Assembly: GCA_043738925.1 (NCBI GenBank)
Contig: JAYUFA010000285.1
Location: 1-35,015 of the forward strand
Direction: 5' to 3'
Length of the DNA stretch: 35,015 bases
DNA from: Actinomycetota bacterium
GTDB lineage: Bacteria; Actinomycetota; Acidimicrobiia; Acidimicrobiales; WLNW01
How positions within the stretch are numbered: position 1 is the stretch's first letter; each line of letters begins with the position of its first letter. A program made the position numbers and the translations under genes. This document shows positions 15,901-26,029 of the stretch, in pieces. The notes under the pieces were generated by a model. That model was not told the origin of the DNA. It saw nothing but the letters and a program-made list of their open reading frames with translations, and made no database searches.

Positions 15901-17622
15901 ACCGAAGAACTCGGCGCGAACATTCGTCGCTATCGCGATGCGTGGACAGCTGCCGGTCACGATGGTCACGGCCGCATCACGCTGATGCTGCACACATTCC
16001 TCGACCGCGATGCGAACGTGGCCAAGGAATCGGCTCGACTGCCCCTGAAGGGGTATCTCGGCACTGCCGCCGGACTGCTGAAGAACATGGCGTCCGCGTT
16101 CCCCACCTTTGCTGGGTCAGGCAAGGATGCCGACGAGGCATTCAAGTCTCTCACCGAGGATGAACTCTCGCAGTTGCTCGACATGGCAGCCGATCGCTAC
16201 CTGCAAACCAGCGGGCTCTTCGGCACAGCGCACGACGCCGCTCACGTGATCGAGAAGGTGTCCGTGCTCGGGGTGGACGAGGTTGCGTGCCTGATCGACT
16301 TCGGGGTCGATACCGAGGCCGTGCTCAGCTCCTTCGAGCTGCTGCGCGAGACCAAAGACCTCATCGACGCGCATCGTGCCGCTGCCGCGAGCGCTCCATC
16401 GGCGCCAGTCGCCGAGGTGATCGACATGGCCGACGACACCGTGGCCGCGCTCAGCGCGCGCCACGGTGTCACCCACCTCCAATGCACGCCGTCACTGGCG
16501 GCCATGTTGGTGGCCGACCCCGCCGACCGGCAGGCGCTCACCACTATTCGCCACATGATGGTCGGCGGCGAAGCGTTGCCTGCGGCCCTCGCCGCCGAAC
16601 TGCGCGAGCTGTTGCCCGCGCGGTTCACCAACATGTACGGCCCGACCGAGACCACGATCTGGTCGTTGACCCACGAGATCGACCGCCCGCCCGAGGCCGC
16701 TGTACCCATCGGCCTTCCCATCGCGAACACCACGATCTTCGTGCTCGACGCGAACGGCCGGCCGTTGCCGATGGGCGTATACGGCGAGCTGCATATCGGC
16801 GGCGACGGCGTGGCCCACGGTTATCACAACCGCCCCGATCTCACCGCCGAGCGCTTCGTCGACCGGCCTGGCATGGGTCTCGTGTATGCCACGGGTGACG
16901 TCGCTCGCATCCATCCAAGCGGCACGGTCGAGTTCGCAGGCCGCGCCGACAATCAGGTCAAGATCCGCGGTCACCGCATCGAACTCGGCGAGATCGAGGC
17001 GGTGCTCGACACCCACCCCGATGTCGTGCAATCGGTGGTCGTCGCTCGCAGCGATAGCGGCACCCCGCAACTCGTCGCGTACGTGGTCACCCACGGCAAT
17101 CGCAAGGCCGACAGCGACATCCTGCGCAAGCACGTGGCCGAGGAGTTGCCCGAGATCATGGTGCCAGCCGCTGTCGTCACCTTGGCCGCCTTTCCGCTCA
17201 CCCCGAACGGCAAGGTCGATCGCAAGGCAATGCCCGCGCCGCCGACGGGCAGCGGCGTCACCTCGGCGAACAGTGTCCTGGTGCCGCCCACCGACGAACA
17301 CGAGGCCTTGGTCGCGCTGATCTGGACCGAGGAGCTCGGCCGACCCGTCAGCCGCGACGACAACTTCTTCGAGATCGGTGGTCACTCGTTGCTCGCCGTG
17401 AAGGTCTTCCGTCGCTTGAGCGAGGCCGCCGACGCACCGCTCGCGCTCACGGATATCTTTCGGTACCCGACCATTCGAACTTTTGCCGCGCACCTCGGCG
17501 CCGCGGTTGGAGGCGCCTCCGGCGGGTCAGTCGACCCGTCGTCCGCACCGACGGCCGCGCCGACCGGCACCGACCGTGGGGCGATGCGACGCCGCGCACT
17601 CAACCGCCGCGGCGGAGACTGA
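12913..17622 (+). CDS. Starter NRPS module: formyltransferase, C-domain remnant, A domain interrupted by a luciferase-like monooxygenase, and PCP
   Basis: 1569 aa. TTG start with GAGG 5 nt upstream. A-domain motifs A1-A10 are all present, an LLM domain sits between A4 and A5, and the PCP has the GGHSL motif. See the domain features below. Confidence 0.95.
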   Translation: MNDHNESHDHAAWRCAFIGDESLAAQCSEIARQHGLVVAVIATNNPQVRRYAEENDIACVDSAGDLAATLAQHEFDVLLSVANLRVLSDAVLSLAPVNINFHDGPLPGYGGLNVTSWAILGGERQHAITWHIMTADVDGGEVITTELMPILADDTAFSLNARCYEAGVSSFARVAEQLAARTLRTTAQPAGERRMFGKFARPATLFDPQAPAADTDRLLRAISLGSRYRNTLGSLRIVLDNAVYVLERTRVLDATPGVPAGHIVAIDEDGVRVATTEADLLLIEVSTASGSVASVREMVSGRGLAAGDAFPTPPSLLVAALAAADNHLARNETFWLNRLARLEPTDPPRVSLTPLDETWSSTNITLPDNTSTDDIVASVVLWLARVSGTGRAAMSYDDADLRASCTKLAPLAHGPVLAIDVPDGQTFAELRSAIAAEREQLAKRGPFLHDAVGRDPRTRGKSIHTSTAFCLDTSEQASRVGTPDATTLLRFEYTSDSQTLTLHHRNDAFDAAHAARVGEQLTTLLAATRTTAEARVYELALIGPTEQALLDAMNATGIGYDITATVDELFRAQARHTPDAPALTFAARTLTYAQLRDATNLLAAKLRAAGVGRGDRVGIALPRSIDMVVSVLATLECGAAYLPLDPTYPDDRLDFMVDDAGIKALIAQGEIAVRLSRPGLALVHPNDPDVAGNEAAHDHVASDLAYVIYTSGSTGKPKGVMLTHRNANNFFVAMDAKIDPEHPGTWLSVTSLSFDISVLELLWTLTRGYHVVLKADRGIPTHATSGAVTATVPPVSARPMSLSLFYFAAGESQAAEGYRLLLEGAKFADKNGFEAVWTPERHFHAFGGHYPNPSVVSAAVAAITEHVHIRAGSVVLPLHSPVRVAEEWAIVDNLSRGRVGISFAAGWQPNDFVLNPSVYGTAKDALPSMIDTVKRLWRGETVDLPGHDGVPVPTRTLPRPVQPELPVWLTSAGSPSTFVQAGTLGTNLLTHLLGQSTEELGANIRRYRDAWTAAGHDGHGRITLMLHTFLDRDANVAKESARLPLKGYLGTAAGLLKNMASAFPTFAGSGKDADEAFKSLTEDELSQLLDMAADRYLQTSGLFGTAHDAAHVIEKVSVLGVDEVACLIDFGVDTEAVLSSFELLRETKDLIDAHRAAAASAPSAPVAEVIDMADDTVAALSARHGVTHLQCTPSLAAMLVADPADRQALTTIRHMMVGGEALPAALAAELRELLPARFTNMYGPTETTIWSLTHEIDRPPEAAVPIGLPIANTTIFVLDANGRPLPMGVYGELHIGGDGVAHGYHNRPDLTAERFVDRPGMGLVYATGDVARIHPSGTVEFAGRADNQVKIRGHRIELGEIEAVLDTHPDVVQSVVVARSDSGTPQLVAYVVTHGNRKADSDILRKHVAEELPEIMVPAAVVTLAAFPLTPNGKVDRKAMPAPPTGSGVTSANSVLVPPTDEHEALVALIWTEELGRPVSRDDNFFEIGGHSLLAVKVFRRLSEAADAPLALTDIFRYPTIRTFAAHLGAAVGGASGGSVDPSSAPTAAPTGTDRGAMRRRALNRRGGD
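12949..13785 (+). other. Formyltransferase (F) domain: Fmt-like N-terminal catalytic part plus C-terminal OB-like part (approximate bounds)
   Basis: INFHDGPLPGYGG corresponds to the N-x-H-x-S-LLP-x-x-RG motif, with the His codon at 13216-13218. ADVDGGEVI corresponds to the catalytic Asp motif. The layout resembles the F domains of LgrA and OzmO. Confidence 0.8.
13906..14580 (+). other. Condensation-domain C-terminal half without the HHxxxDG catalytic motif (remnant or linker)
   Basis: ETFWLNRLARLEP...LPD...DIVASVVLWLARVSG resembles the post-C3 region of C domains. No HHxxxDG was found anywhere upstream of the A domain. Confidence 0.5.
14596..17235 (+). other. Adenylation domain, interrupted; hand-derived specificity code DILQMGMIWK (Gly-like)
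   Basis: A3 is LAYVIYTSGSTGKPKG and A4 is SFDISVLE (Asp codon 15175-15177), followed by the insertion. After it come A5 NMYGPTETT (16630), A6 GELHIGGDGVAHGY, A7 YATGD, A8 GRADNQVKIRGHRIELGEIE and A10 NGKVDRK. The code was obtained by manual alignment to GrsA-PheA positions 235-517. Confidence 0.85.
15310..16350 (+). other. Luciferase-like (FMN-dependent) monooxygenase domain inserted between A4 and A5 (MtaG/MelG MOx-type)
   Basis: MSLSLFYFAAG...YRLLLEGAKFADKNGFEAVWTPERHFHAFGGHYPNPSV...RAGSVVLPLHSPVRVAEEWAIVDNLSRGRVGISFAAGWQPNDF is the typical natural-product LLM-domain signature. Confidence 0.85.
17301..17495 (+). other. Peptidyl carrier protein (T) domain
   Basis: FFEIGGHSLLAVKV, with the phosphopantetheinyl Ser codon at 17386-17388. 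Confidence 0.9.
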
Positions 17623-17667
17623 GCTCACGATGCGTCGATCGACCGAAACCTTGAGGACACGCACCGC

Positions 17668-20600
17668 ATGAACGCCGACGAGCTGTCCGAATCCGACATC
17701 GCGATCGTTGGCATGTCGGGGCGCTTCCCCGGCGCGCCCGATGTCGATGCGTTGTGGACTCGGGTGCGCAACGGTGACGACTGCCTGGTCGACCTCGACC
17801 CCAACGATCTGATCGCCGCCGGTTTGCCGGCGTCACTCGTGCAGGCAACCGACTACGTCAAGCGTTCTGGCATTCTCGAAGGCGTCGACACCTTCGACGC
17901 CGGGTTCTTCGGAATCGGCGCACGCGACGCGTCGATCATGGACCCGCAACATCGACACTTCTACGAGATCGCATGGGAGACCATCGAGTCCGCCGGTTAC
18001 GTCCCCGAGCGATTCGACGGCGCAATCGGCGTGTTCGCCGGTTGCGGTATGAACACCTACCTCGTCAACAACCTGCTCACGAACCCCCAACTCGTCGATC
18101 AGGTGGGCTGGTTCCTCCTGCGCCACACCGCCAACGACAAAGACTTCCTGGCGACCGGCGTTTCCTACCGACTCGATTTGCGCGGCCCATCGATCAGCGT
18201 GCAGACCGCATGCTCCACATCGCTCGTCGCGATCCATCTCGCCGCACAGAGCCTGCTGTCGTTCGAGTGCGACATGGCCGTCGCCGGCGGCGTCACCATC
18301 GAAGTGCCCCACGCCCGCGGCTACCGCTACCACGAAGGCGAGATCCTCGCGCCCGACGGGATGTGCCGTGCGTTCGACGCCCGTTCCGGCGGCACGGTGC
18401 TTGCCAGCGGCGCCGGCGCCGTCGCGCTGCGACGCTTGACCGACGCCTACCGTGACGGTGATCCCATCCTCGCGGTCGTGAAGGGCAGCGCCGTCAACAA
18501 CGACGGCAGTCGCAAGGTGAGCTATCTCGCGCCGAGTGTCGACGGCCACGCCGACGTCGTCAAAGAAGCGCTCGCGGTTGCCGGGTTGTCGGCACGTGAC
18601 ATCACGCTGCTCGAGGCGCACGGCACCGGCACAGCCGTCGGCGATCCGATCGAGGTCGCGGCCCTTACCGAAGGGTTCCGCGCGTCGACGACCGACACCG
18701 GGTTCTGCCGCCTCGTGTCCACCAAGCCGAATATCGGTCACCTCGATACCGCGGCCGGTGTCGCCAGCATCATCAAGGTTGTTCAGGCGCTGCGTCACCA
18801 GACGCTGCCACCGATTGCCAACCACACCGCGCCGAGCCCGCTGCTCGACATCGAGCGCACGCCCTTCGTGCTGTCGGGCCATGCTTCGCCGTGGCCGACC
18901 ACCGGCACGGCCCCGCGTCGTGCGGGGGTCAGCTCGCTCGGCGTAGGCGGTACGAACGCTCACGTCATCGTCGAGGAGGCACCTGAGTACGCGCCCACAC
19001 CCGCGGCGGCGCCCGAGCAAGTACTCGCGTTGTCGGGTCGCTCGCCGAAAGCCGTCGACGATGCGGTAACCCGCCTCGCCGACTTCCTCGAAGCGCACCC
19101 CGACACGAACCTCGCCGACGTCGCGTTCACACTTGCCACCGGCCGACGCGCCATGACGCACCGCCGCGTACTCACGGTCACCGATACCACGAGCGCACCG
19201 ACGCAACTGCGAGAGGCCGACCGGCGCCGCAACCAGCAGGGTCAAACAGCCGACACGGCGCCCGGCGTCGCATTCTTGTTTCCCGGAGGCGGCGCGCAGT
19301 ACGTCGGCATGGGGGCCGGGCTCGACGAGCGCTTTGACGTTTACCACCAGGTGATGCGTGACGGCATCGCGCTCACCAGGCAACTGGCCAACGGTCTCGA
19401 CCTTGCGCCACTCCTTACGCCGGGCGGAGACGACGACGCGTTGCGTCAAGCCGACGCGTCGCTACCCGCGGTGTTTATCACCACGATCGCGCTCGCGAAG
19501 CAGTGGATGGCCTGGGGTGTCAGACCTCGTACGTTCGTCGGCCACAGCCTGGGCGAGTACGCAGCCGCACACCTCGCTGGTGTGCTCACGTTCAAGGATG
19601 CGCTCTCACTCGTGGTGGTGCGCGCACAGCTGATGGCGCGCGTCGGAGGCGCCGGTGCCGCGATGCTCGCCGTGCCATTGTCCTCGGAGCAGGTCCGAGC
19701 GATCCTGCCGGAGAGCATCTCGCTTGCCACCGTGAACGCTCACGACGAATGCGTCGTATCCGGTCACGCCGTCGACGTGTTCGCGTTCGACGAGCAACTT
19801 GCCGCCGACGGAATCACCTGTACACGCATCCCGCTCGCTGCCGCGGCGCACAGCTCCTTGCTCGATCCGGTACTCGCCGAGTTCCTCGAGGCTGTGCGGG
19901 GTGTCACGCTGTCGGCGCCCCAAATGCCCTACCTGTCAAACCTCACCGGCACGTGGATCACCACCGAGCAGGCCACAGATCCGCAGTACTGGGTCGACCA
20001 TCTGCGTAACACCGTGCGGTTCGCCGATTGTCTGGCCACCGCGCTCGCCGACGGCCCACTCGCGCTCGTCGAGATCGGGCCCGGGCAATCGCTGTCGTCG
20101 TACGCACGGCGCCAGGAGACCAACGCCCCCGTAATCGTGGTGGCCTCACTCCGTCACCCCAACGACAAGACCGACGACACGGTGCACTCGTTGCAGGCGG
20201 TCGCAAAGCTTTGGACCGTCGGCGTGCCCGTCGCGCTCGAGCAGTTCAGCGGTACTGGTCGACGACGCTTACGATTGCCGACCTACCCCTTTCAACGCGA
20301 ACGCCATTGGATCGAACCCGGCAATGGCTACAGCACCACCGAAGGTGCGTCGGTGGCCGCGACCCGGCCCGTGGGCATTGCACGGGGGCACGAGGCCAAG
20401 CCGAGCGGGCCGGCGCGTATCGACAACCTTGACGACTGGTTCTGGGAACCGTCGTGGGTCGAACGCGAGTTGCAGTCCACGCCGCGCGCCACCGTTGGTC
20501 CGTGGTTACTCGTCGGCGATGACGCCGATCCGCTCGTTGGCGCCATCTCGGTCGAACTGCGCCACCGCGGCGAGATCGTGCGCACCGCAAGCACCTTCGA

Positions 20601-23600
20601 TCCCGATCGCTTGGGCCCCAGCCGCGCCATTGCCGTCATCGGCGCCGCGGGCAATGACGCCACCGGCCTCGATCGTGCCGCAGCACGCTGGTTGGGCGAC
20701 ACCGTGTCAGCCGCACGAACGTTGGGCAACCACGCCGATGGTGTTGCCCGCCTCGCGGTGGTCACACGTGGCGCAACAGCGGCAGGCGGCATGGCCACAC
20801 GGCCCGTCGACGCGCTCGCGCTCGGCACGGTGCTCGTCGCACCAAAAGAGTATCCCGATCTCACCACCGTGCTCGTCGATCTCGACGCCGCCGCGGGTTC
20901 TGAAGGAGCGCGTGCCGCGGTCGACGAACTGCTCGCCGCCACCGACCGCGTCGTTGCCCGCCGCGGCAAAGCCCGCCTCGTGCCCGAACTCTCGCGACTC
21001 GCCCTGCCGGCCCCGCGCGCCGACACCGTCACCTTCCGCAAGGGTGGCATCTACGTCGTGACCGGCGCGCTCGGCGGTGTCGGTCACGTGCTGGCGAAAC
21101 ATCTCGCGACCGCGCACGACGCGTCGCTTGTCGTGGTGTCGTCGACCACGGTCCCTGAGGGCGACCAACGCGACCGCTGGCTGGCGCGTCACGGCCACGA
21201 CGACGCGACCTCACGTCGCATCCGACGACTCGTCGAGCTCGAAACGCTGGCCACCAAGGTCGTCACCGTCACCGCTGACCTCGCCGATCCTGTCGCTCTA
21301 CGCCACGCGCTTGACGAAGCCGAGCGCCGTATTGGTCGCATCGACGGCGCCGTGCACGCTGCCGGCCACCTGCAAGATCGACTCATCGAAATGGTCACCC
21401 CCGAGGACCACGAAGCCGTCATCGGTCCCAAGGCCCGCGCCGCGATTGTGTTGGCCGACGAGCTGGCGCGACGTGGCGCCGAGCTGCTCGTGCTGGTCAG
21501 CTCGACCAGCACGACGCTCGCTCCCGGCGGACAAACAAGCTATGTCGCGGCGAACGCCGTACTCGATGCTCTTGCAGGCACGCGTGGACGGCTGCGGGTC
21601 ACGACGATGGACTTCGGTGTGTGGGCCGGCACGGGCATGGCGGCCCAAGCTGCGCGCAAGCTCCGCCTTGGCATCGAGGATGGCACCCACATCATTCATC
21701 CGGTGTTGGCCGAGATGCAGGTCGGCCGCGACGGCACGCTTGCGTTCATCGGCCGCGTGGATGCCGCGCATGACTGGGTCGTCAACGAACATCGCACCGA
21801 GACTGGCGTCGCGGTGTTGCCGGGCACCGGCCACATTGAGCTGATGCTGGCTGCGCTGCACTATGGCAAGGTCGGCCGGGCCGGACTCCGCAACGTTGCT
21901 TTGCTCGAACCACTCATCGTGCCCGAGTCGAGCACGGTCACACTCAAGGTCACGGTCACGCCCGCAGATACCGCCGGCGTCCGGTTTGTGCGGATCGACA
22001 GCGACCGCGGCGGCGGCCGCGTCTGGCACACCCACAGCGAGGCGGAGGTCGTTGCCATCGATCCGTCGCTTGCGCTCGCACCACTCGATCTCGACGCGCT
22101 CGGCCGGGCATGCGGTCTCGACGGCATCGATGTGCTCGCCGGCCCTCGCCGCCACCTACGCCTCGGTCCTCGGTGGGACGCCGTGGTCGACGCGGCACTC
22201 GGTGACGGCGAGATCTTCGGCCGCCTCGCGCTCGCCGATGCATTCGACGACGACGCGCACGCCTGGACTGTACATCCCGCGTTGTTCGACGTGGCCACCG
22301 CCTTCGGTGTTCGCCTCGCCGCTTCCGACGATGAAGAGGCGCTGTACGTGCCTGTCGGATACGACAGCGTCACGTCGATCGCGCCGCTGCCGTCGCATGT
22401 GGTGGTGCACGCAACGCGACATCCCTCGACAACCGATCAGATACTTCGCGTCGATCTCACGTTGGCAGACATAGAGGGGAACGTCGCGCTCCGCGTCAGT
22501 GGTCTCAGCTTGCGCGCGATGCGTGACCCCGGCATGTTCGCGGCAGCGCCGGATGACGATGCTCCAGCCACGCCGCGGGCGATGGCGCCGCTGTTGGCGC
22601 TCGCCGAGGACCTCGGCATTCGTGAGGCCGAAGGCGCGTTGCTCGTCGAGCGCCTACTGGCCAGCGGTCGGCCCCGTCTGATCGCGTCAAGCGTCGATCT
22701 CGACTCGTTACGAGACGACGAAGACGCCGACAGCGCCGCGAGCAAACCGAGCGACCTCGCTGCGCCTGCCGGCAGCGTCGTCGACGCGCTCACGGTCATG
22801 TGGCGTGACCTGCTCGGCGTCGACAACGTCTCGCCCACCGACGATTTCTTCGATCTTGGCGGACATTCGCTCATCGCGATCCGCTTGATGGCACGCGTTC
22901 ACCGCGAGCTCGGCGTGCGCTTTCAGCTCGCGACACTGTTCGAAGCTCCCACCATCGACAAGCTTGCCGCACTCGTGCGGGTCGAGCGCCCGACCATCGA
23001 CGCCACGCTCGCCCAAGTCGCAGCCGACACGCCCACACCGGCCGAGGCCGCGTCAGCCGCGTCGAGCCGAGCCAGTTGTCTCGTGCCGATCCGTGCGGCC
23101 GGTCACAAAGAGCCGTTCTTCATCGTGCATGGCGCGGGCGGCAACGTGCTCTACCTGTGGAGCCTCGTGCGTGCTCTTCCCGAAGGCCGACCGGTATACG
23201 GGTTCCAGGCCCACGGCATCGATGGCATCGGACAACCTGACCAGACCATCGAAGCCATGGCCGCGCGCTACGTCGAGGCATTGGTTGCGTTCAAGCCCGG
23301 ACCGTATGTGCTCGGCGGCTACTCCGGCGGCGGCATTGTCGCGTTCGAGATGACGAAGCAGCTGCAGGCGCTGGGCCAACAGGTGCAATACCTGGTGCTC
23401 TTCGATTCCATCGGCTCCCAATACCTGGGCCCGCGGTTCGGGTCGCGCCTCAAGAACGTCACGCAGAACCTCGGACGCGAAGGCGTACGCGAGCTCTGGC
23501 CTTTCCTCGATGAGTTGGCACGCAAGCGCTATCGCCGCATCGTCCCGTCACCGGCAGCCAAACAAGCGGCCCGCGAGGTCCAGTCGCGCGAGATGGGCTA

Positions 23601-23880
23601 TTCCGACGTAACCGACTTCGGGATTGTCGATCTTGAGGATCACTTCGCCGAAGTCGTGCATCGCTACCGGCTTGGCAGCTACAACGTCGACTATGCGCTG
23701 CTGAAAGCCGACGAGGTGTGGCCGGTGTTCCCGAGGGACTACTACTGGTCGCGCTACGTGACCGGCTCCATCGACGTCGTGTCGGTGCCCGGCAATCACC
23801 ACACGATGTTCGCTCCCGAGAACGCACCGATCCTGGCGGCCAAGCTCACACGTCTCCTTGACGAGCACGACCCGACATGA
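17668..23880 (+). CDS. Type I polyketide synthase: KS-AT-KR-DH-carrier-TE
   Basis: 2070 aa. ATG at 17668 with GAGGA upstream, 45 nt after the NRPS stop. Domain motifs are listed in the features below. Confidence 0.95.
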   Translation: MNADELSESDIAIVGMSGRFPGAPDVDALWTRVRNGDDCLVDLDPNDLIAAGLPASLVQATDYVKRSGILEGVDTFDAGFFGIGARDASIMDPQHRHFYEIAWETIESAGYVPERFDGAIGVFAGCGMNTYLVNNLLTNPQLVDQVGWFLLRHTANDKDFLATGVSYRLDLRGPSISVQTACSTSLVAIHLAAQSLLSFECDMAVAGGVTIEVPHARGYRYHEGEILAPDGMCRAFDARSGGTVLASGAGAVALRRLTDAYRDGDPILAVVKGSAVNNDGSRKVSYLAPSVDGHADVVKEALAVAGLSARDITLLEAHGTGTAVGDPIEVAALTEGFRASTTDTGFCRLVSTKPNIGHLDTAAGVASIIKVVQALRHQTLPPIANHTAPSPLLDIERTPFVLSGHASPWPTTGTAPRRAGVSSLGVGGTNAHVIVEEAPEYAPTPAAAPEQVLALSGRSPKAVDDAVTRLADFLEAHPDTNLADVAFTLATGRRAMTHRRVLTVTDTTSAPTQLREADRRRNQQGQTADTAPGVAFLFPGGGAQYVGMGAGLDERFDVYHQVMRDGIALTRQLANGLDLAPLLTPGGDDDALRQADASLPAVFITTIALAKQWMAWGVRPRTFVGHSLGEYAAAHLAGVLTFKDALSLVVVRAQLMARVGGAGAAMLAVPLSSEQVRAILPESISLATVNAHDECVVSGHAVDVFAFDEQLAADGITCTRIPLAAAAHSSLLDPVLAEFLEAVRGVTLSAPQMPYLSNLTGTWITTEQATDPQYWVDHLRNTVRFADCLATALADGPLALVEIGPGQSLSSYARRQETNAPVIVVASLRHPNDKTDDTVHSLQAVAKLWTVGVPVALEQFSGTGRRRLRLPTYPFQRERHWIEPGNGYSTTEGASVAATRPVGIARGHEAKPSGPARIDNLDDWFWEPSWVERELQSTPRATVGPWLLVGDDADPLVGAISVELRHRGEIVRTASTFDPDRLGPSRAIAVIGAAGNDATGLDRAAARWLGDTVSAARTLGNHADGVARLAVVTRGATAAGGMATRPVDALALGTVLVAPKEYPDLTTVLVDLDAAAGSEGARAAVDELLAATDRVVARRGKARLVPELSRLALPAPRADTVTFRKGGIYVVTGALGGVGHVLAKHLATAHDASLVVVSSTTVPEGDQRDRWLARHGHDDATSRRIRRLVELETLATKVVTVTADLADPVALRHALDEAERRIGRIDGAVHAAGHLQDRLIEMVTPEDHEAVIGPKARAAIVLADELARRGAELLVLVSSTSTTLAPGGQTSYVAANAVLDALAGTRGRLRVTTMDFGVWAGTGMAAQAARKLRLGIEDGTHIIHPVLAEMQVGRDGTLAFIGRVDAAHDWVVNEHRTETGVAVLPGTGHIELMLAALHYGKVGRAGLRNVALLEPLIVPESSTVTLKVTVTPADTAGVRFVRIDSDRGGGRVWHTHSEAEVVAIDPSLALAPLDLDALGRACGLDGIDVLAGPRRHLRLGPRWDAVVDAALGDGEIFGRLALADAFDDDAHAWTVHPALFDVATAFGVRLAASDDEEALYVPVGYDSVTSIAPLPSHVVVHATRHPSTTDQILRVDLTLADIEGNVALRVSGLSLRAMRDPGMFAAAPDDDAPATPRAMAPLLALAEDLGIREAEGALLVERLLASGRPRLIASSVDLDSLRDDEDADSAASKPSDLAAPAGSVVDALTVMWRDLLGVDNVSPTDDFFDLGGHSLIAIRLMARVHRELGVRFQLATLFEAPTIDKLAALVRVERPTIDATLAQVAADTPTPAEAASAASSRASCLVPIRAAGHKEPFFIVHGAGGNVLYLWSLVRALPEGRPVYGFQAHGIDGIGQPDQTIEAMAARYVEALVAFKPGPYVLGGYSGGGIVAFEMTKQLQALGQQVQYLVLFDSIGSQYLGPRFGSRLKNVTQNLGREGVRELWPFLDELARKRYRRIVPSPAAKQAAREVQSREMGYSDVTDFGIVDLEDHFAEVVHRYRLGSYNVDYALLKADEVWPVFPRDYYWSRYVTGSIDVVSVPGNHHTMFAPENAPILAAKLTRLLDEHDPT
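17695..18980 (+). other. Ketosynthase domain
   Basis: DIAIVGMSGRFPG. Active-site TACSTSLVAIHLA with the Cys codon at 18211-18213. EAHGTGTAVGD, KPNIGHLDTAAG and GTNAHVIVEE are also present. Confidence 0.95.
19267..20170 (+). other. Acyltransferase domain with an atypical specificity motif
   Basis: FLFPGGGAQY. GHSLGEY with the Ser codon at 19546-19548. The specificity position reads AAAHS rather than HAFHS (malonyl) or YASHS (methylmalonyl). Confidence 0.9.
20500..21645 (+). other. Ketoreductase domain (structural plus catalytic subdomains), located before the DH
   Basis: Rossmann motif VVTGALGGVGHVLAKHL (21061-21084) and catalytic region SSTSTTLAPGGQTSYVAANAVLD. Confidence 0.85.
21697..22525 (+). 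other. PKS-type dehydratase (double hot-dog) domain, located after the KR
   Basis: HPVLAE. NEHRTETGVAVLPGTGHIE with the His codon at 21790-21792. LGPRW occupies the YGPxF position, and HPALFDVATAF corresponds to the D-xxx-Q/H motif. Confidence 0.8.
22777..22980 (+). other. Carrier domain with a PCP-type motif (GGHSL) rather than the ACP-type (GxDSL)
   Basis: DDFFDLGGHSLIAIRLMARV, with the Ser codon at 22867-22869. Confidence 0.85.
23080..23877 (+). other. Type I thioesterase domain
   Basis: FFIVHGAGGN. GGYSGGG with the Ser codon at 23323-23325. A distal His lies in PGNHHTMF. Confidence 0.85.
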
Positions 23881-24638
23881 CCGCTGCCGACCTCGATGGG
23901 CAGCTCGACGCGCCCGCCTTGGTTGCTGCGGCCCGACTCCTCGCCGAACGCACTGGCCTCACCATTGCGCTCGTACCGATCGCTGACGCTGGCCGAGCCG
24001 CAGACAGCGTTGGCGGCCAACACGCGGCCGGCAAGGCATTGGGTGCAAGCGGTTTCCCCTATGGCTTCGACGGCCGGCACCGCGACGATGGTCGGCCGAT
24101 TTGGCCGGCCGAGTACACGGGCTCGATCGCGCATGCGGGCGCGATCGCGGCAGCGGCGGTTCTGGCGTTACCTCGGCGCGCCGCCGTGAGGCAACCAGCG
24201 CGGGGCGTGGGTATCGACATCGAGATCGAATGCGCGCTGCCCGCGGCCGACGCTACGGCCGTGCTTGGACATGGAGAACGCGCGCTCGTCATCGGCGCTG
24301 ATCGGCCCGACGCGCTCGCGACCATGCTGTGGAGCGCGAAAGAGGCGGCATACAAGGCGTGGTGCGAAGCGCTTGACGGCCACATCGGCACCGTCGATCC
24401 GGTCGACATCCAAATCGAGATCGGCGCCCCGGTTGACGGTTTACAACCGATTCTGGCGCGACCGCGGGGCGCGCTGGCAACAACGCTGGCGGGCTTCGAC
24501 CCGGCGGTGGGATGGTGCGCCGCCGCCGACGGCTATGTGTTGGTGGCCGTGTCTGTCGGCGCAGCGCCCCGCCACGGCGACGACGGCATTGCCAGCGAAG
24601 CAATCACGAGCCCAAGCGCCGCGAACGCCACGACATAG
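23877..24638 (+). CDS. 4'-phosphopantetheinyl transferase (Sfp/EntD type)
   Basis: ATGA overlap with the PKS stop. Motifs PIWPAEYTGSIAHAG, GIDIE and WSAKEAAYKAW. Confidence 0.85.
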   Translation: MTAADLDGQLDAPALVAAARLLAERTGLTIALVPIADAGRAADSVGGQHAAGKALGASGFPYGFDGRHRDDGRPIWPAEYTGSIAHAGAIAAAAVLALPRRAAVRQPARGVGIDIEIECALPAADATAVLGHGERALVIGADRPDALATMLWSAKEAAYKAWCEALDGHIGTVDPVDIQIEIGAPVDGLQPILARPRGALATTLAGFDPAVGWCAAADGYVLVAVSVGAAPRHGDDGIASEAITSPSAANATT

Positions 24639-25051
24639 AGACCACCGCCGACGACAAGCGGCTCGCTGGTGAGCTGATCGTGGGCATGGGTGATGCTCCA
24701 TCGGTTGATCAGGTACAAGCCGAACACCACGAGACCGCACGCGGCAATCGCCAACCGCAGCGCGAGATGGCGCACGCCGACCGCGACCGCGCCGCCGAGG
24801 CCGGCGCCGACCGTGACCAGCCCGATGACGATCCACCCGTTGACGTGATCGACACCGCGACCCGACACACCGTCGGCGTAGTGCAGCCACGGCGCGAACG
24901 AGCCGAACACGCCGGCCATCACCGCGGCGGTCGCGAACGCGAGGGTCGCCCAGACGCGTTTGTCACGCGGCTGATGCCGCGGTGGCGAACCGATGGAGAC
25001 CCACCCATCGGGCGGCAACGCAGTGGCCGCGATCGGCGGCGCCAACGGCAT
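24533..25051 (-). CDS. Small hypothetical membrane protein (about 4 TM helices)
   Basis: Lower part of the 24533..25267 ORF; the upper part is occupied by the tRNA gene. Start candidates are the ATGs at 25051 and 25096. Its 3' end overlaps the PPTase 3' end convergently by 106 nt. Confidence 0.45.
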   Translation of the reverse strand: MPLAPPIAATALPPDGWVSIGSPPRHQPRDKRVWATLAFATAAVMAGVFGSFAPWLHYADGVSGRGVDHVNGWIVIGLVTVGAGLGGAVAVGVRHLALRLAIAACGLVVFGLYLINRWSITHAHDQLTSEPLVVGGGLYVVAFAALGLVIASLAMPSSPWRGAAPTDTATNT

Positions 25052-25123
25052 CACGAAACGGTCACGTCCCTGCTCAACCACTTGGTGTCCCTGCATGCGG
25101 TCGCGAGCGACCGATTGGCGGAG

Positions 25124-25204
25124 AGCGCCGGGTGGGATTTGAACCCACGAAGCTTTCGCAACGGCTTTGCAGGCCGCTCCCTTTGGCCACTCGGGCACCG
25201 ACGC
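25124..25204 (-). tRNA. tRNA with anticodon GCA (Cys codons) and discriminator U73, on a class II (long variable region) tRNA-Tyr-like body; CCA not encoded
   Basis: Hand-folded sequence: GCGTCGG-TG-CCCG-AGTGGCCAAA-GGGA-GCGGC-CTGCAAA-GCCGT-TGCGAAAGCTTC-GTGGG-TTCAAAT-CCCAC-CCGGCGC-T.
- The acceptor stem is 7 bp with one G-U pair.
- U8, A14, G18G19 and the T-loop TTCAAAT are canonical.
- The anticodon loop is C-U-GCA-A-A.
- The variable region is 12 nt. Confidence 0.8.
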
Positions 25205-25336
25205 ATAAAGGCCCATCCGCTGAGCCGTCATGAGGATAGCCCGACGTCGCCTGCATCCAGCACGCACCTGCGAGGGTCGTCGCTTCTCGACAACGTGCTC
25301 ACGGGTCGGTGCGGCTCGTATGCCAGAGTGGGCCCT

Positions 25337-26029
25337 ATGACCGACGGGGCCGTCCGCACGCCACTCGACCTGCTTGGGCGGATGTCAACCGACGAGCAGC
25401 AACTCGCACCGTCGTTGCGCCTCGTCGAGAGCTACACGATGCATGGCATGCTGAAGCTGTTGTGGCACGGCGACCCGGCGGCCGAAGAGGTCGTGCTGCT
25501 GTGTCCTGGTGGCATGGGCGGGTTCCTCGGCCCCGCGCACGGCTTGTACCTACACATCGGCCGTGAGCTCGCCCGCAGCGGCATGGGAGTCATCGGCGTC
25601 GACTATCGCCGACCCGACAAGCTCGACCTGTCGTTGCTCGATGTAGCCGCCACGGCTGATTGGGCGATGCGCCAAGGAGCGCGCCGCTTCGTCTGCGTGG
25701 GTCACTCGTTCGGCGGCGCCGTCGCGGTCCAAGCGGGTACCACGCTCCAAGGATTCTGCGCCGGCGTACTCACCCTTGCCACCCAAAGTGCCGGCTGCGA
25801 AATTGCCCAGCTCCTTGGCGAGGTACCGCTCCTGCTCGTACACGGCGACCGCGACGAGATCTTGTCACCGAACGACTCTGCGATGGTGCGATCGATTGCC
25901 GGACACGGCGAACTGCTCGTGTACCCCGGCGCCGGACACGCGCTCAACGAGGTGCACCTCGAATTGCGCAAGAAGGTCCTCGATTGGATTCCCGCGCAGT
26001 TCGCCACGATGCGCCACCGCGACGATTGA
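25337..26029 (+). CDS. Alpha/beta hydrolase (dienelactone hydrolase/BAAT-like)
   Basis: Internal ATG at 25337 of the 24512..26029 ORF; the upstream part crosses the tRNA gene. Nucleophile elbow GHSFGG, with a distal VHGDRDEI...GAGHAL. Confidence 0.7.
   Translation: MTDGAVRTPLDLLGRMSTDEQQLAPSLRLVESYTMHGMLKLLWHGDPAAEEVVLLCPGGMGGFLGPAHGLYLHIGRELARSGMGVIGVDYRRPDKLDLSLLDVAATADWAMRQGARRFVCVGHSFGGAVAVQAGTTLQGFCAGVLTLATQSAGCEIAQLLGEVPLLLVHGDRDEILSPNDSAMVRSIAGHGELLVYPGAGHALNEVHLELRKKVLDWIPAQFATMRHRDD

What the first reader, a model, noticed from the sequence alone, without database searches (positions are those of the whole stretch)
25124..25204. tRNA with Cys identity elements (GCA anticodon, U73) on a class II tRNA-Tyr-like scaffold
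Folding the minus strand by hand gives a clean cloverleaf with two features of bacterial class II tRNAs. The D-arm has a 3-bp stem with G13/A22 unpaired and a 10-nt D-loop, and the variable region is 12 nt (U-GC-GAAA-GC-UUC).

From position 8 to 28 the sequence is UGCCCGAGUGGCCAAAGGGAGC. E. coli tRNA-Tyr reads UUCCCGAGCGGCCAAAGGGAGC over the same span, so the two are nearly identical. The variable region also ends in CUUC, as in tRNA-Tyr.

Two positions differ. The anticodon loop is CUGCAAA (GCA) instead of CUGUAAA (GUA), and the discriminator is U rather than A.

U73 and the GCA anticodon are the main CysRS identity determinants. A73, U35 and the long variable arm are TyrRS determinants. Both Tyr-specific positions have changed to the Cys state.

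Three readings are possible:
- an identity-switched class II tRNA-Cys
- an ambiguous decoder that inserts Tyr at UGY codons
- a degenerating tRNA-Tyr paralogue

Canonical tRNA-Cys is class I, with a 4-5 nt variable loop.
Basis: partly seen in the sequence, partly recalled or inferred. Interest (0 to 1): 0.65.

Follow-up and report, generated by a model that had tools for sequence, protein, structure and literature searches.

The report
Cysteine tRNA with an extra arm
This is the only cysteine tRNA gene found in a genus of uncultured Acidimicrobiales bacteria: its body looks like a tyrosine tRNA, a trait shared with about a quarter of its order, and the genus has added a small extra hairpin, an unusual shape but almost certainly ordinary cysteine decoding.

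Summary
Window 25124-25204 (minus strand) is a clean 7/5 cloverleaf tRNA with anticodon GCA, discriminator U73, a tRNA-Tyr-type D-arm and a 12-nt variable region, U-GC-GAAA-GC-UUC.

It is not a recent Tyr-to-Cys switch, an ambiguous decoder or a decaying Tyr copy. It is the only tRNA-Cys candidate in all four genomes of its Acidimicrobiales genus. It lies at the same locus as the class I tRNA-Cys of sister lineages, and a full-length CysRS is present.

There are two layers:
- **Tyr-like body.** About 20 families of the order share it, with 5-6 nt variable loops. The rest of the order has a canonical tRNA-Cys.
- **12-nt arm.** It is a single gain in this genus lineage. On an RpoB tree the genus is nested among short-loop relatives.

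Lineage-specific models reproduce the predicted isotype conflict (Tyr model 83.5 bits, canonical-Cys model 45.5). The same conflict appears in relatives that lack the arm.

UGC encodes essential cysteines in this genome. Charging by CysRS through U73 and GCA is inferred, not tested.

Verdict: a new variant of a known kind, of moderate interest.

The parts
25124..25204 (-). tRNA-Cys(GCA) gene, 81 nt up to the discriminator. CCA is not encoded; the next bases are CUC.
   Evidence: ARAGORN; Rfam RF00005 at 54.6 bits; own model R1 at 96.1 bits.
25198..25204 (-). Acceptor stem 5' strand GCGUCGG. It pairs with 25125-25131 (CCGGCGC) and includes a U4-G69 wobble that the lineage's tRNA-Tyr also has.
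   Evidence: All 7 acceptor pairs are 100% paired in 30 variants, and 6 of them show changes on both sides.
25179..25195 (-). D-arm CCC-GAGUGGCCAAA-GGG: a 3-bp stem with C10:G25, and G13/A22 unpaired. It is identical to the D-arm of the genome's tRNA-Tyr.
25161..25177 (-). Anticodon stem-loop GCGGC-CUGCAAA-GCCGU. The anticodon GCA is at 25168-25170.
25149..25160 (-). 12-nt variable region UGCGAAAGCUUC: a mini-hairpin of GC/GC closed by a GAAA tetraloop. This is the part specific to the genus.
   Evidence: Fold. Lineage variants read [U/A]GCG[A/C]AAGCUUC. Relatives have 5-6 nt here.
25132..25148 (-). T-arm GUGGG-UUCAAAU-CCCAC. The U50-A64 pair is a compensated change from the C-G pair of relatives and of the more divergent long-arm members.
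25124..25124 (-). Discriminator U73.
25331..26029 (+). Divergently oriented alpha/beta-hydrolase gene. It serves as the synteny anchor showing that this locus is orthologous to the class I tRNA-Cys locus of relatives. It is not functionally linked to the tRNA.
   Evidence: Pfam Abhydrolase_1 and Hydrolase_4. Next to tRNA-Cys in the genus at 78-88% aa identity, in the sister genus at 56-58%, and in G009 at 48%.

Best explanation
This is the working, and apparently only, cysteine tRNA of a genus-level lineage of uncultured Acidimicrobiales (Actinomycetota).

**How it works.** It decodes UGU and UGC as cysteine. CysRS charges it through the two dominant cysteine determinants, the GCA anticodon and U73, both of which are present.

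**History, in two steps.**
1. In an ancestor of about 20 families of the order, the canonical tRNA-Cys was replaced at the same Gly-Cys-Val locus. The canonical form has a GGCGGCG acceptor stem, G10:C25 and a 4-nt variable loop. The replacement has the acceptor stem and D-arm of the lineage's tRNA-Tyr but a short, 5-6 nt variable loop. It most likely arose from a tRNA-Tyr copy, or by gene conversion from one, with U35C and A73U.
2. In the ancestor of this genus, about 6 nt were inserted into that loop. This created a mini-arm of 2-3 bp capped by a GNRA tetraloop, close in size to a bacterial tRNA-Tyr arm.

**Why the arm is tolerated.** The class II-type core (3-bp D-stem, G13/A22, long D-loop) was already there. 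CysRS is also thought to approach tRNA from the side away from the variable region.

**Shown:** the gene, its fold, orthology, sole-copy status, distribution, single gain, presence of CysRS, and UGC at essential cysteines.

**Inferred:** charging by CysRS, no charging by TyrRS, the Tyr origin of the body, and whether the arm is neutral or useful.
For: **The gene and its uniqueness**
- Gene and fold.
- It is the only tRNA-Cys ARAGORN finds in the 3.86-Mb assembly.
- It is the only candidate matching a generic tRNA-Cys pattern in all four genus genomes, including one that is 96% complete.
- The identical or near-identical 82-nt gene is in all 4 genus genomes, in 3 GTDB species records and in 7 metagenome contigs.
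- All of these share the neighbouring hydrolase gene at 78-88% aa identity. The sister genus, at 56-58%, and G009, at 48%, have a class I tRNA-Cys at that same position.

**Distribution in the order**
- Survey with model R1: about 49 of 201 genomes have this tRNA-Cys type at 74-75 nt. Only this genus has 81 nt.
- The 15 other genomes of the order that I read have the canonical tRNA-Cys.
- Among 192 sampled Actinomycetota outside the order, none has the variant D-arm with GCA.

**Single gain of the arm**
- RpoB tree: the genus is monophyletic (100/100). Its sister is G033 (97/93), whose loop is ACAGUC.
- That loop is identical in eight sampled genomes from at least seven families.
- The long arm needs one change on the tree.

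**Selection on the fold**
- The four helices are 100% paired in 30 distinct sequences, with 10 pairs changed on both sides. No shuffle in 500 reaches this.
- The tetraloop is GAAA or GCAA, both GNRA. GCAA occurs on two T-stem backgrounds.

**Enzyme and codon use**
- CysRS scores 451.6 bits on TIGR00435 and aligns end to end with E. coli CysRS (1LI5, 1U0B) at 372 bits.
- UGC encodes the two CysRS zinc-ligand cysteines located by motif and the ketosynthase catalytic Cys.

**Transcription**
- Contigs from four RNA-seq or metatranscriptome runs contain the tRNA with its arm at 0 mismatches.

**Tyr-like body**
- Segment table.
- Same-genome Cys-Tyr identity outside the variable region is 78-84%, against 58-69% for canonical Cys.
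- Model scores.
Against: - There is no biochemical evidence for which amino acid is attached.
- Mature tRNA is not shown. The RNA-run contigs run on into flanking sequence unlike the window's, so they come from relatives. They could be precursor transcripts or carried-over DNA.
- The assembly is 87% complete, so a second tRNA-Cys cannot be strictly excluded in this genome. None is seen in the 96%-complete genus member either.
- The two G-C pairs of the arm never vary, so the arm's stem has no covariation support.
- The RpoB tree rests on one 681-aa marker, and its backbone is poorly resolved.
- The Tyr origin of the body is inferred from similarity. The anticodon arm and T-arm are as close to some canonical tRNA-Cys genes as to tRNA-Tyr. 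The variant also sits at the ancestral Cys locus, which a simple story of a duplicated Tyr gene does not explain.
- TyrRS was not found in three of the four genus assemblies. This is most likely an assembly gap, but that is unproven.
Confidence: 0.85

Rival explanations
1. Retained arm. The tRNA is a remoulded tRNA-Tyr that never lost its variable arm, and the short loops of all relatives are independent deletions.
For: - The body is Tyr-like.
- The arm is about the size of the lineage's Tyr arm (12 against 12-14 nt) and ends in UUC, as many of those arms do.
- Short loops come in two lengths and several sequences.
Against: - On the RpoB tree the genus is nested, and its sister G033 has a short loop (97/93).
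- The identical 6-nt loop ACAGUC recurs in eight sampled genomes from at least seven families. That is hard to obtain by independent deletions.
- The arm sequence matches none of the 21 Tyr arms read.
Confidence: 0.08
2. Ambiguous or dual-identity decoder. With a Tyr body and an arm again present, TyrRS charges a fraction of the tRNA, so some UGY codons are read as Tyr.
For: - The acceptor stem, D-arm and an arm of Tyr-like size are all present.
- Bacterial TyrRS contacts the variable arm of tRNA-Tyr in PDB 1H3E, as summarised in PMC5766645.
Against: - A73 and U35, the major determinants for bacterial TyrRS, are both changed. U73 and GCA are the major CysRS determinants (PMC9976931).
- It is the sole tRNA-Cys detected and has been fixed through species-level divergence.
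- UGC sits at catalytic and zinc-binding cysteines.
- True 'Tyr body with GCA and A73' tRNAs exist elsewhere and look different. They also coexist with a normal tRNA-Cys.
Confidence: 0.04
3. The arm is a selected module rather than tolerated baggage. It could stabilise a class II-type core that lacks its arm, block a tRNA-Cys-directed nuclease or toxin, or serve as a handle for a modification enzyme.
For: - The arm is conserved across lineage members whose neighbouring protein has diverged by up to 22%.
- The loop stays GNRA in two independent A/C changes.
- Similar compact arms on tRNA-Cys recur in unrelated contigs and in phage-like tRNA arrays.
- Earlier unverified notes of this scan report the same in Phycisphaerae and in phages.
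Against: - There is no covariation in the stem.
- The whole tRNA is highly conserved, so conservation of the arm is not special.
- A44-to-U44 weakens the stem in the G000 group.
- No candidate partner or nuclease was identified.
Confidence: 0.2
4. Pseudogene: a degenerating tRNA-Tyr paralogue.
For: CCA is not encoded, and no sigma-70-type promoter or intrinsic terminator was found by consensus scan.
Against: - The cloverleaf is perfect, with compensated substitutions.
- It is the sole tRNA-Cys detected in 4 genomes.
- A separate intact tRNA-Tyr is present.
- Many other tRNAs of this genome also lack an encoded CCA.
- It is present in RNA-run contigs.
Confidence: 0.01

Closest known systems
Canonical bacterial tRNA-Cys (for example E. 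coli cysT, or the GGCGGCG-type tRNA-Cys of other Acidimicrobiales)
   Same: - GCA anticodon, U73 and a 7/5 cloverleaf.
- A 3-bp D-stem with an unpaired 13/22 pair.
- The only tRNA-Cys gene detected in the genome.
- In short-loop members of the variant clade, the same Gly-Cys-Val locus as canonical tRNA-Cys.
- A standard full-length CysRS is present.
   Different: - The variable region is 12 nt with a hairpin, not 4 nt.
- C10:G25 replaces G10:C25.
- C2:G71 and G3:C70 replace G2:C71 and C3:G70.
- The D-loop is of the Tyr type.
- It scores 45.5 bits on the lineage's canonical-Cys model, against 87-90 bits for two canonical tRNA-Cys genes that were not used to build the model.
Bacterial class II tRNA-Tyr
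   Same: - The D-arm is identical to the lineage's tRNA-Tyr.
- The acceptor stem differs by one base pair and shares the U4-G69 wobble.
- The arm is of similar size (12 against 12-14 nt).
- It scores 83.5 bits on the Tyr model.
   Different: - U73 replaces A73, and C35 replaces U35.
- The arm sequence is unrelated to the Tyr arms, and the T-stem differs.
- Relatives with the same body have no arm.
- A separate genuine tRNA-Tyr exists in the genome.
selC* tRNA-Cys (Mukai et al. 2017, PMC5389517; reviewed in PMC7609411)
   Same: It is a tRNA with Cys identity marks (GCA or UCA, and U73) and a long variable arm.
   Different: - selC* tRNAs are Sec-like, with an 8/4 structure, a longer anticodon stem and an A51a bulge.
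- They occur in anaerobic Firmicutes, Thermodesulfobacteria, Nitrospirae and Proteobacteria.
- They are often linked to selB* and cysS*, and they coexist with a normal tRNA-Cys.
- This gene is 7/5, has a Tyr-like body, and is the sole tRNA-Cys detected.
Non-canonical V-arm-containing tRNAs of eukaryotes (nev-tRNAs; PMC3333845, PMC4300185)
   Same: A class II shape is combined with an anticodon of a class I amino acid.
   Different: - nev-tRNAs keep Leu identity and are mischarged, so they break the code.
- They are extra genes.
- Here the identity elements agree with the anticodon, and the gene is the essential sole copy.
tRNA remoulding or gene recruitment (alloacceptor shifts, best known in mitochondria and shown experimentally in E. 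coli)
   Same: One isoacceptor family appears to have been replaced by a derivative of another, through anticodon and discriminator changes.
   Different: - This would be a chromosomal, clade-wide replacement in free-living bacteria that crosses the class II / class I boundary.
- The origin is inferred from similarity only.

Membership tests
Bacterial tRNA-Cys (functional identity) | Anticodon GCA | tested here: met
   ARAGORN and the sequence itself.
Bacterial tRNA-Cys (functional identity) | Discriminator U73 | tested here: met
   Rfam alignment and ARAGORN fold. U73 and GCA are the major determinants according to PMC9976931.
Bacterial tRNA-Cys (functional identity) | Class I shape with a variable loop of 4-5 nt | tested here: not met
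   The variable region is 12 nt with a predicted hairpin. Canonical relatives have 4 nt and variant relatives 5-6 nt.
Bacterial tRNA-Cys (functional identity) | Serves as the genome's tRNA-Cys, with a cognate CysRS present | tested here: met
   It is the only tRNA-Cys candidate in 4 genus genomes. CysRS scores 451.6 bits and is full length.
Bacterial tRNA-Cys (functional identity) | Aminoacylated with cysteine by CysRS | not testable with these tools
   This needs an aminoacylation assay or charged-tRNA sequencing.
Bacterial tRNA-Cys (functional identity) | E. coli-type core determinants (G15:G48 Levitt pair, A13:A22) | tested here: not met
   Here the pairs are G15 with C48, and G13 with A22. 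PMC9976931 states that the G15:G48 feature is conserved in only a few bacterial species, so it does not define the family as a whole.
Bacterial class II tRNA-Tyr | Anticodon GUA (U35) and discriminator A73 | tested here: not met
   The gene has GCA and U73.
Bacterial class II tRNA-Tyr | Tyr-type D-arm (C10:G25, G13/A22, D-loop AGYGGCCAA) and a long variable arm | tested here: met
   The D-arm is identical to the lineage's tRNA-Tyr. The arm is 12 nt against 12-14 nt. The Tyr model gives 83.5 bits, against 105.6-111.3 for genuine tRNA-Tyr.
selC* tRNA-Cys | 8-bp acceptor stem with a 4-bp T-stem (Sec-like 8/4 fold) | tested here: not met
   The fold is 7/5 by ARAGORN, Rfam and ViennaRNA.
selC* tRNA-Cys | Linked selB* or cysS* genes, and coexistence with a canonical tRNA-Cys | tested here: not met
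   The immediate neighbours on either side are a hydrolase and a PPTase, with a riboflavin kinase beyond the hydrolase. There is no second tRNA-Cys. The second cysS-like ORF (415 aa, matching model positions 1-320) looks MshC-like and lies on another contig (MshC structures also match the CysRS query).
Mistranslating class II tRNAs (nev-tRNA / allo-tRNA style) | Identity elements of one amino acid combined with the anticodon of another | tested here: not met
   The discriminator and the anticodon both specify Cys. Contrast cases with GCA plus A73 exist elsewhere (L036, L089).

The most novel reading that the evidence does not exclude
The body is a remoulded tRNA-Tyr that displaced the canonical tRNA-Cys in a large part of the Acidimicrobiales and lost its arm in the process. 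The arm regained in this genus is then not neutral. It would be a selected module on a class II-type core, for example one that shields the cell's only tRNA-Cys from a tRNA-Cys-directed toxin or nuclease, or one that gives a partner protein a handle. The same solution would have been reached independently on tRNA-Cys in other bacteria and in phage tRNA arrays.
Probability: 0.12. Interest if true: 0.7.

Novelty: new variant of a known kind. Interest (0 to 1): 0.45.

Why it matters
Textbook bacterial class II tRNAs are Leu, Ser and Tyr (and Sec); tRNA-Cys is class I. Here an essential, single-copy tRNA-Cys of free-living bacteria has a class II-type core, and in one genus a class II-like arm, while keeping Cys identity marks.

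It shows three things:
- The class I / class II boundary can be crossed in both directions within one order.
- Body-based isotype models will flag a whole clade's normal tRNA-Cys as 'Tyr-like'. That is a practical annotation trap for tRNAscan-SE isotype checks in Acidimicrobiales MAGs.
- A cellular tRNA family may have been replaced by a derivative of another family. If confirmed, that would be a natural chromosomal example of alloacceptor remoulding.

It also offers a simple natural series for testing how far CysRS ignores the variable region and how TyrRS is kept off a Tyr-like body. The series runs from the canonical form, to the Tyr-like body with a short loop, to the Tyr-like body with an arm.

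Tried and rejected
- **E. coli comparison.** The query is too short for a 28-Gb database, so the result is uninformative.
- **Transcription signals.** The consensus scan of 24600-25500 found no promoter or terminator. This is uninformative for a 65% GC actinobacterium.
- **Integration site.** A search for a repeat of the tRNA 3' end in the window, as an att-like sign that the downstream NRPS-PKS cassette is an inserted island, found only the tRNA itself.
- **First RpoB tree.** It had six rows on a branch about 10 units long because the longest ORF was the wrong frame in high-GC DNA. It was discarded and rebuilt with frames chosen by RpoB motifs.
- **Missing TyrRS.** TyrRS is absent from G000, G001 and G002. 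I considered this as a possible hint of altered Tyr or Cys decoding and rejected it. G003 of the same genus has it, G000's assembly breaks into 3-5 kb contigs and ends about 4.7 kb short of that locus, and tRNA-Tyr(GUA) and TAY codons are present.
- **Arm copied from tRNA-Tyr.** None of the 21 Tyr arms read resembles UGCGAAAGCUUC beyond a generic GC stem.
- **Arm as a partial tandem copy.** The anticodon-loop segment UGCAAAGCCGU is followed by UGCGAAAGCUUC. I noted the resemblance by eye but did not test it, and I give it no weight.
- **Earlier notes of this scan.** A look-up by sequence found nothing for this lineage.
Full report
**1. The observation**

ARAGORN finds exactly one tRNA in the window, tRNA-Cys(GCA) at 25123-25204 on the minus strand. 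Rfam's general tRNA model matches 25124-25204 end to end at 54.6 bits, against a gathering score of 29.

The sequence is GCGUCGG UG CCC GAGUGGCCAAA GGG A GCGGC CUGCAAA GCCGU UGCGAAAGCUUC GUGGG UUCAAAU CCCAC CCGGCGC U.

- It is a standard 7/5 cloverleaf.
- The D-stem is 3 bp, with G13 and A22 unpaired.
- The variable region is 12 nt. ViennaRNA folds it as GC-GAAA-GC.
- The discriminator is U.
- CCA is not encoded, as is true of many other tRNAs of this genome.

**2. Genome context**

The window is contig C285 of a 570-contig, 3.86-Mb, 65% GC assembly that is 87% complete. Records carrying the same gene are titled as Acidimicrobiales / Actinomycetota MAGs.

- ARAGORN finds one tRNA-Cys (this one), one class II tRNA-Tyr(GUA) on C482 and a tRNA-Sec.
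- The genome's tRNA-Tyr and this tRNA-Cys match at 29 of the first 31 bases; positions 2 and 31 differ, and both are compensated.
- A full-length CysRS is present, at 451.6 bits on TIGR00435. It aligns end to end with E. coli CysRS 1LI5/1U0B.
- A second, shorter cysS-like ORF (415 aa, matching model positions 1-320) looks like MshC.
- UGC encodes the two zinc-ligand cysteines located by motif in that CysRS and the catalytic cysteine (TACST) of the polyketide ketosynthase in the window. The genome therefore relies on UGY meaning cysteine.

**3. Is it typical of the lineage?**

All four genomes of the genus carry the 82-nt gene at 99-100% identity. A generic tRNA-Cys pattern finds no other candidate in any of them, including one that is 96% complete.

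The sister genus and many other families of the order have a tRNA-Cys with the same acceptor stem (identical or differing by up to two base pairs), D-arm, anticodon arm and U73, but only 74-75 nt up to the discriminator, with a 5-6 nt variable loop.

The alpha/beta-hydrolase gene beside the tRNA (window 25331-26029) fixes the orthology:
- It lies beside the long-arm gene at 78-88% aa identity in every member of the genus lineage, including seven metagenome contigs.
- It lies beside the class I gene in the sister genus (56-58%) and in G009 (48%).

The long-arm gene is therefore the positional orthologue of an ordinary-length tRNA-Cys.

**4. Two layers**

A covariance model of this tRNA-Cys type (R1) was run on 201 genomes of the order.

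- About 49 genomes in about 20 families have it, at over 86 bits and 74-75 nt.
- Only this genus has 81 nt.
- The tRNA-Tyr genes form a second tier at roughly 71-79 bits among the listed matches.

The 15 other genomes of the order that I read have a canonical bacterial tRNA-Cys: GGCGGCG acceptor stem, G10:C25 and a 4-nt loop, usually GUAC. Where neighbouring tRNAs were seen, it lies beside tRNA-Val and/or tRNA-Gly. The variant type lies in the same kind of cluster (L008: Gly-Cys-Val).

Among 192 sampled Actinomycetota outside the order, none has the variant D-arm with a GCA anticodon.

tRNA-Tyr is almost invariant across the order. Outside the variable region the variant tRNA-Cys differs from it only by three compensated base-pair changes (2:71, 31:39, and 50:64 with 51:63), U35C and A73U.

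| Comparison, variable region excluded | Identity |
|---|---|
| Variant Cys vs Tyr, all pairs | 78% |
| Variant Cys vs Tyr, same genome | 78-84% |
| Variant Cys vs canonical Cys | 73% |
| Canonical Cys vs Tyr | 66% |

**5. The 'isotype conflict' test**

tRNAscan-SE was not available. I built covariance models from the order's own tRNA-Tyr genes (R2) and canonical tRNA-Cys genes (R3) and scored representative genes.

| tRNA | Tyr model R2 (bits) | Canonical-Cys model R3 (bits) |
|---|---|---|
| Window tRNA (L003) | 83.5 | 45.5 |
| Genuine tRNA-Tyr (L098, L101) | 105.6-111.3 | 43.9-46.5 |
| Canonical tRNA-Cys (L057, L058) | 48.7-51.1 | 87.1-89.8 |
| Short-loop variant tRNA-Cys (L006, L008, L009) | 72.1-73.8 | 54.9-59.0 |

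It is a property of the whole variant clade, with or without the arm.

**6. Gain or retention of the arm**

If the body descends from a tRNA-Tyr, the arm could be a relic. To test this I built an RpoB tree (681 aa, 38 genomes).

- The genus is monophyletic (100/100).
- Its sister is G033 (97/93), which has a short loop, and it is nested among short-loop lineages.
- The long arm needs one change on the tree.
- The 6-nt loop ACAGUC is identical in eight sampled genomes from at least seven families, including the sister lineage. That argues for a short ancestral loop rather than repeated deletions.
- The arm matches none of the 21 Tyr arms read.
- More divergent members of the lineage (L074, L076, L080, L088, L096) keep the ancestral GCGGG T-stem, so the insertion came before the C50-G64 to U50-A64 change.

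I conclude that the arm was gained once in this genus lineage. A single origin of the Tyr-like body is compatible with the tree (AU p = 0.147) but is not demonstrated, because the backbone is poorly resolved.

**7. Is it functional?**

Across 30 distinct variant sequences, the four standard helices are 100% paired and 10 pairs show changes on both sides. No shuffle in 500 reaches this, and slid controls collapse.

Variation within the genus lineage:
- The arm reads [U/A]GCG[A/C]AAGCUUC.
- The loop is GAAA or GCAA, both GNRA. GCAA appears on two different T-stem backgrounds.
- Forms with A44 extend the stem to 3 bp (AGC/GCU).
- The two G-C pairs never vary, so the stem has no covariation support.

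Contigs from four RNA-seq or metatranscriptome runs (sediment, rhizosphere, freshwater, soil) contain the tRNA with the arm at 0 mismatches. One also shows the U44A variant. These contigs continue into flanks unlike the window's, so they come from relatives and may be precursors or DNA carry-over. This supports transcription without deciding it.

**8. Mechanism**

*Shown:* a single tRNA-Cys gene with GCA and U73, a standard CysRS, and UGC at essential cysteines.

*From established knowledge:*
- U73 and the GCA anticodon are the major CysRS determinants, and U73 alone confers Cys identity on minihelices (PMC9976931).
- A73 and U35 are the major determinants for bacterial TyrRS (my own knowledge, not checked in a paper here). 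TyrRS also contacts the Tyr arm (PDB 1H3E, summarised in PMC5766645).

*Inferred:*
- CysRS charges this tRNA, and TyrRS does not.
- The arm is tolerated because the class II-type core was already present.
- The arm is also tolerated because CysRS, a class I enzyme, is thought to bind the face away from the variable region. This rests on my recollection of the 1U0B complex and was not checked here.

Whether the arm is neutral or useful remains open.

**9. Comparison with known kinds and other instances**

The only described tRNA-Cys with a long arm, among the papers I searched and read, is selC* tRNA-Cys. It is Sec-like with an 8/4 fold, is linked to selB*/cysS*, and is an extra gene (PMC5389517, PMC7609411). 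This gene is 7/5, has a Tyr-like body, and is the sole copy. I found no paper describing a canonical-fold bacterial tRNA-Cys with a long arm.

A pattern scan of 185,579 species genomes for this D-arm plus GCA plus a variable region of at least 9 nt found six stretches:
- Three are species of this genus.
- One is a Saprospiraceae MAG, whose long-arm tRNA-Cys coexists with a canonical one.
- One is a contig binned as 'Pacearchaeota', where it sits in a 13-tRNA array.
- One is a Trichlorobacter MAG, whose tRNA has GCA but A73 and CCA in the tyrU position.

A metagenome scan added phage-like tRNA arrays and other single genes.

Earlier notes of this scan report long-arm tRNA-Cys in phages and in Phycisphaerae. 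These are unverified leads, though they fit what I saw in the arrays.

What is distinctive here is the combination: a chromosomal, sole, genus-wide tRNA-Cys, a Tyr-like body shared by a quarter of an order, and a secondary gain of the arm.

**10. Caveats**

- TyrRS was not detected in three of the four genus MAGs. G003 has it, and G000's assembly breaks up and ends about 4.7 kb short of the syntenic position. I read this as an assembly gap, but it is more misses than the completeness figures predict.
- The route by which a Tyr-like sequence came to occupy the ancestral Cys locus is unresolved. It could be a remoulded copy or gene conversion.
- No charging data exist.

**Verdict**

This is the lineage's normal tRNA-Cys: a new structural variant of a known kind, of moderate interest mainly for tRNA evolution and for annotation.

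Noticed in passing
L017/L036 1468-1552 (Trichlorobacter MAG NZ_JAOTRZ010000064) and L089 539-624 (metagenome contig): These tRNAs sit in the classical Thr-Tyr-Gly-Thr (tyrU) position. They have a full Tyr body, A73 and an encoded CCA, but the anticodon is GCA. L036 scores 90.6 bits on the Tyr model and 42.1 on the canonical-Cys model. The Trichlorobacter genome also has a canonical tRNA-Cys (L045). These are true 'Tyr body with Cys anticodon' cases. They could be mistranslators, or single-base assembly or population variants.
   Followed up: partly
L019/L035 1468-1554 (Saprospiraceae MAG JADKAE010000002); near-identical copies in L093 and L097: A second, 87-nt tRNA-Cys has U73, the same Tyr-type D-arm and GUGGG T-stem, and a 4-5 bp arm (UGCGGUAUUAUCGCUUC). 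It sits alongside a canonical 72-nt tRNA-Cys in the same genome (L030).
   Followed up: partly
L075, L077, L078, L082, L083, L085, L086, L087, L091, L095; L032 ('Pacearchaeota' MAG contig); L092: Dense tRNA arrays of 6-23 tRNAs within a few kb, most of them low in GC (32-52%), look phage-like. They carry long-variable-region tRNA(GCA) genes, some with U73 and some with A73 (L075, L078, L091). A 70% GC array of 21 tRNAs (L092) has a tRNA-Cys whose arm is UGCGCAAGCGCCUC.
   Followed up: no
Order-wide: for example L008 (Gly-Cys-Val with the variant Cys) against L057 (Val-Cys-Gly with the canonical Cys): About a quarter of sampled Acidimicrobiales genomes (about 20 GTDB families) have a tRNA-Cys whose acceptor stem and D-arm are those of tRNA-Tyr. 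It sits at the locus where the rest of the order has a canonical tRNA-Cys. This may be a clade-wide alloacceptor replacement.
   Followed up: partly
G000, G001 and G002 genome-wide; G003 C520:529-1791: tyrS is not detected in three of the four MAGs of the genus, although tRNA-Tyr genes are present in those examined (G000, G001, G003). G000's assembly fragments and ends about 4.7 kb before the syntenic position. An assembly or binning gap is probable but unproven.
   Followed up: partly
G000 C93:13521-13615 and C172:1350-2312: The genome has a tRNA-Sec(UCA) gene. It also has a second cysS-like ORF of 415 aa that matches only the first 320 positions of the CysRS model, as an MshC-type ligase would.
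   Followed up: no
G000 C98:7674-7753, C152:570-652, C158:5775-5865 and C531:8697-8779: ARAGORN calls here (80-91 nt 'tRNA-Gly', 'tRNA-Thr' and 'tRNA-Leu' with poor sequence features) look like false positives in high-GC coding DNA. tRNA counts for this MAG should be read with care.
   Followed up: no
window 12913-24638 against 25123: The NRPS-PKS-PPTase cassette described in earlier notes ends about 480 nt from the 3' end of the tRNA-Cys gene and converges on it. No repeat of the tRNA 3' end was found in the window. The cassette end is also next to the tRNA in G001 and G003.
   Followed up: partly
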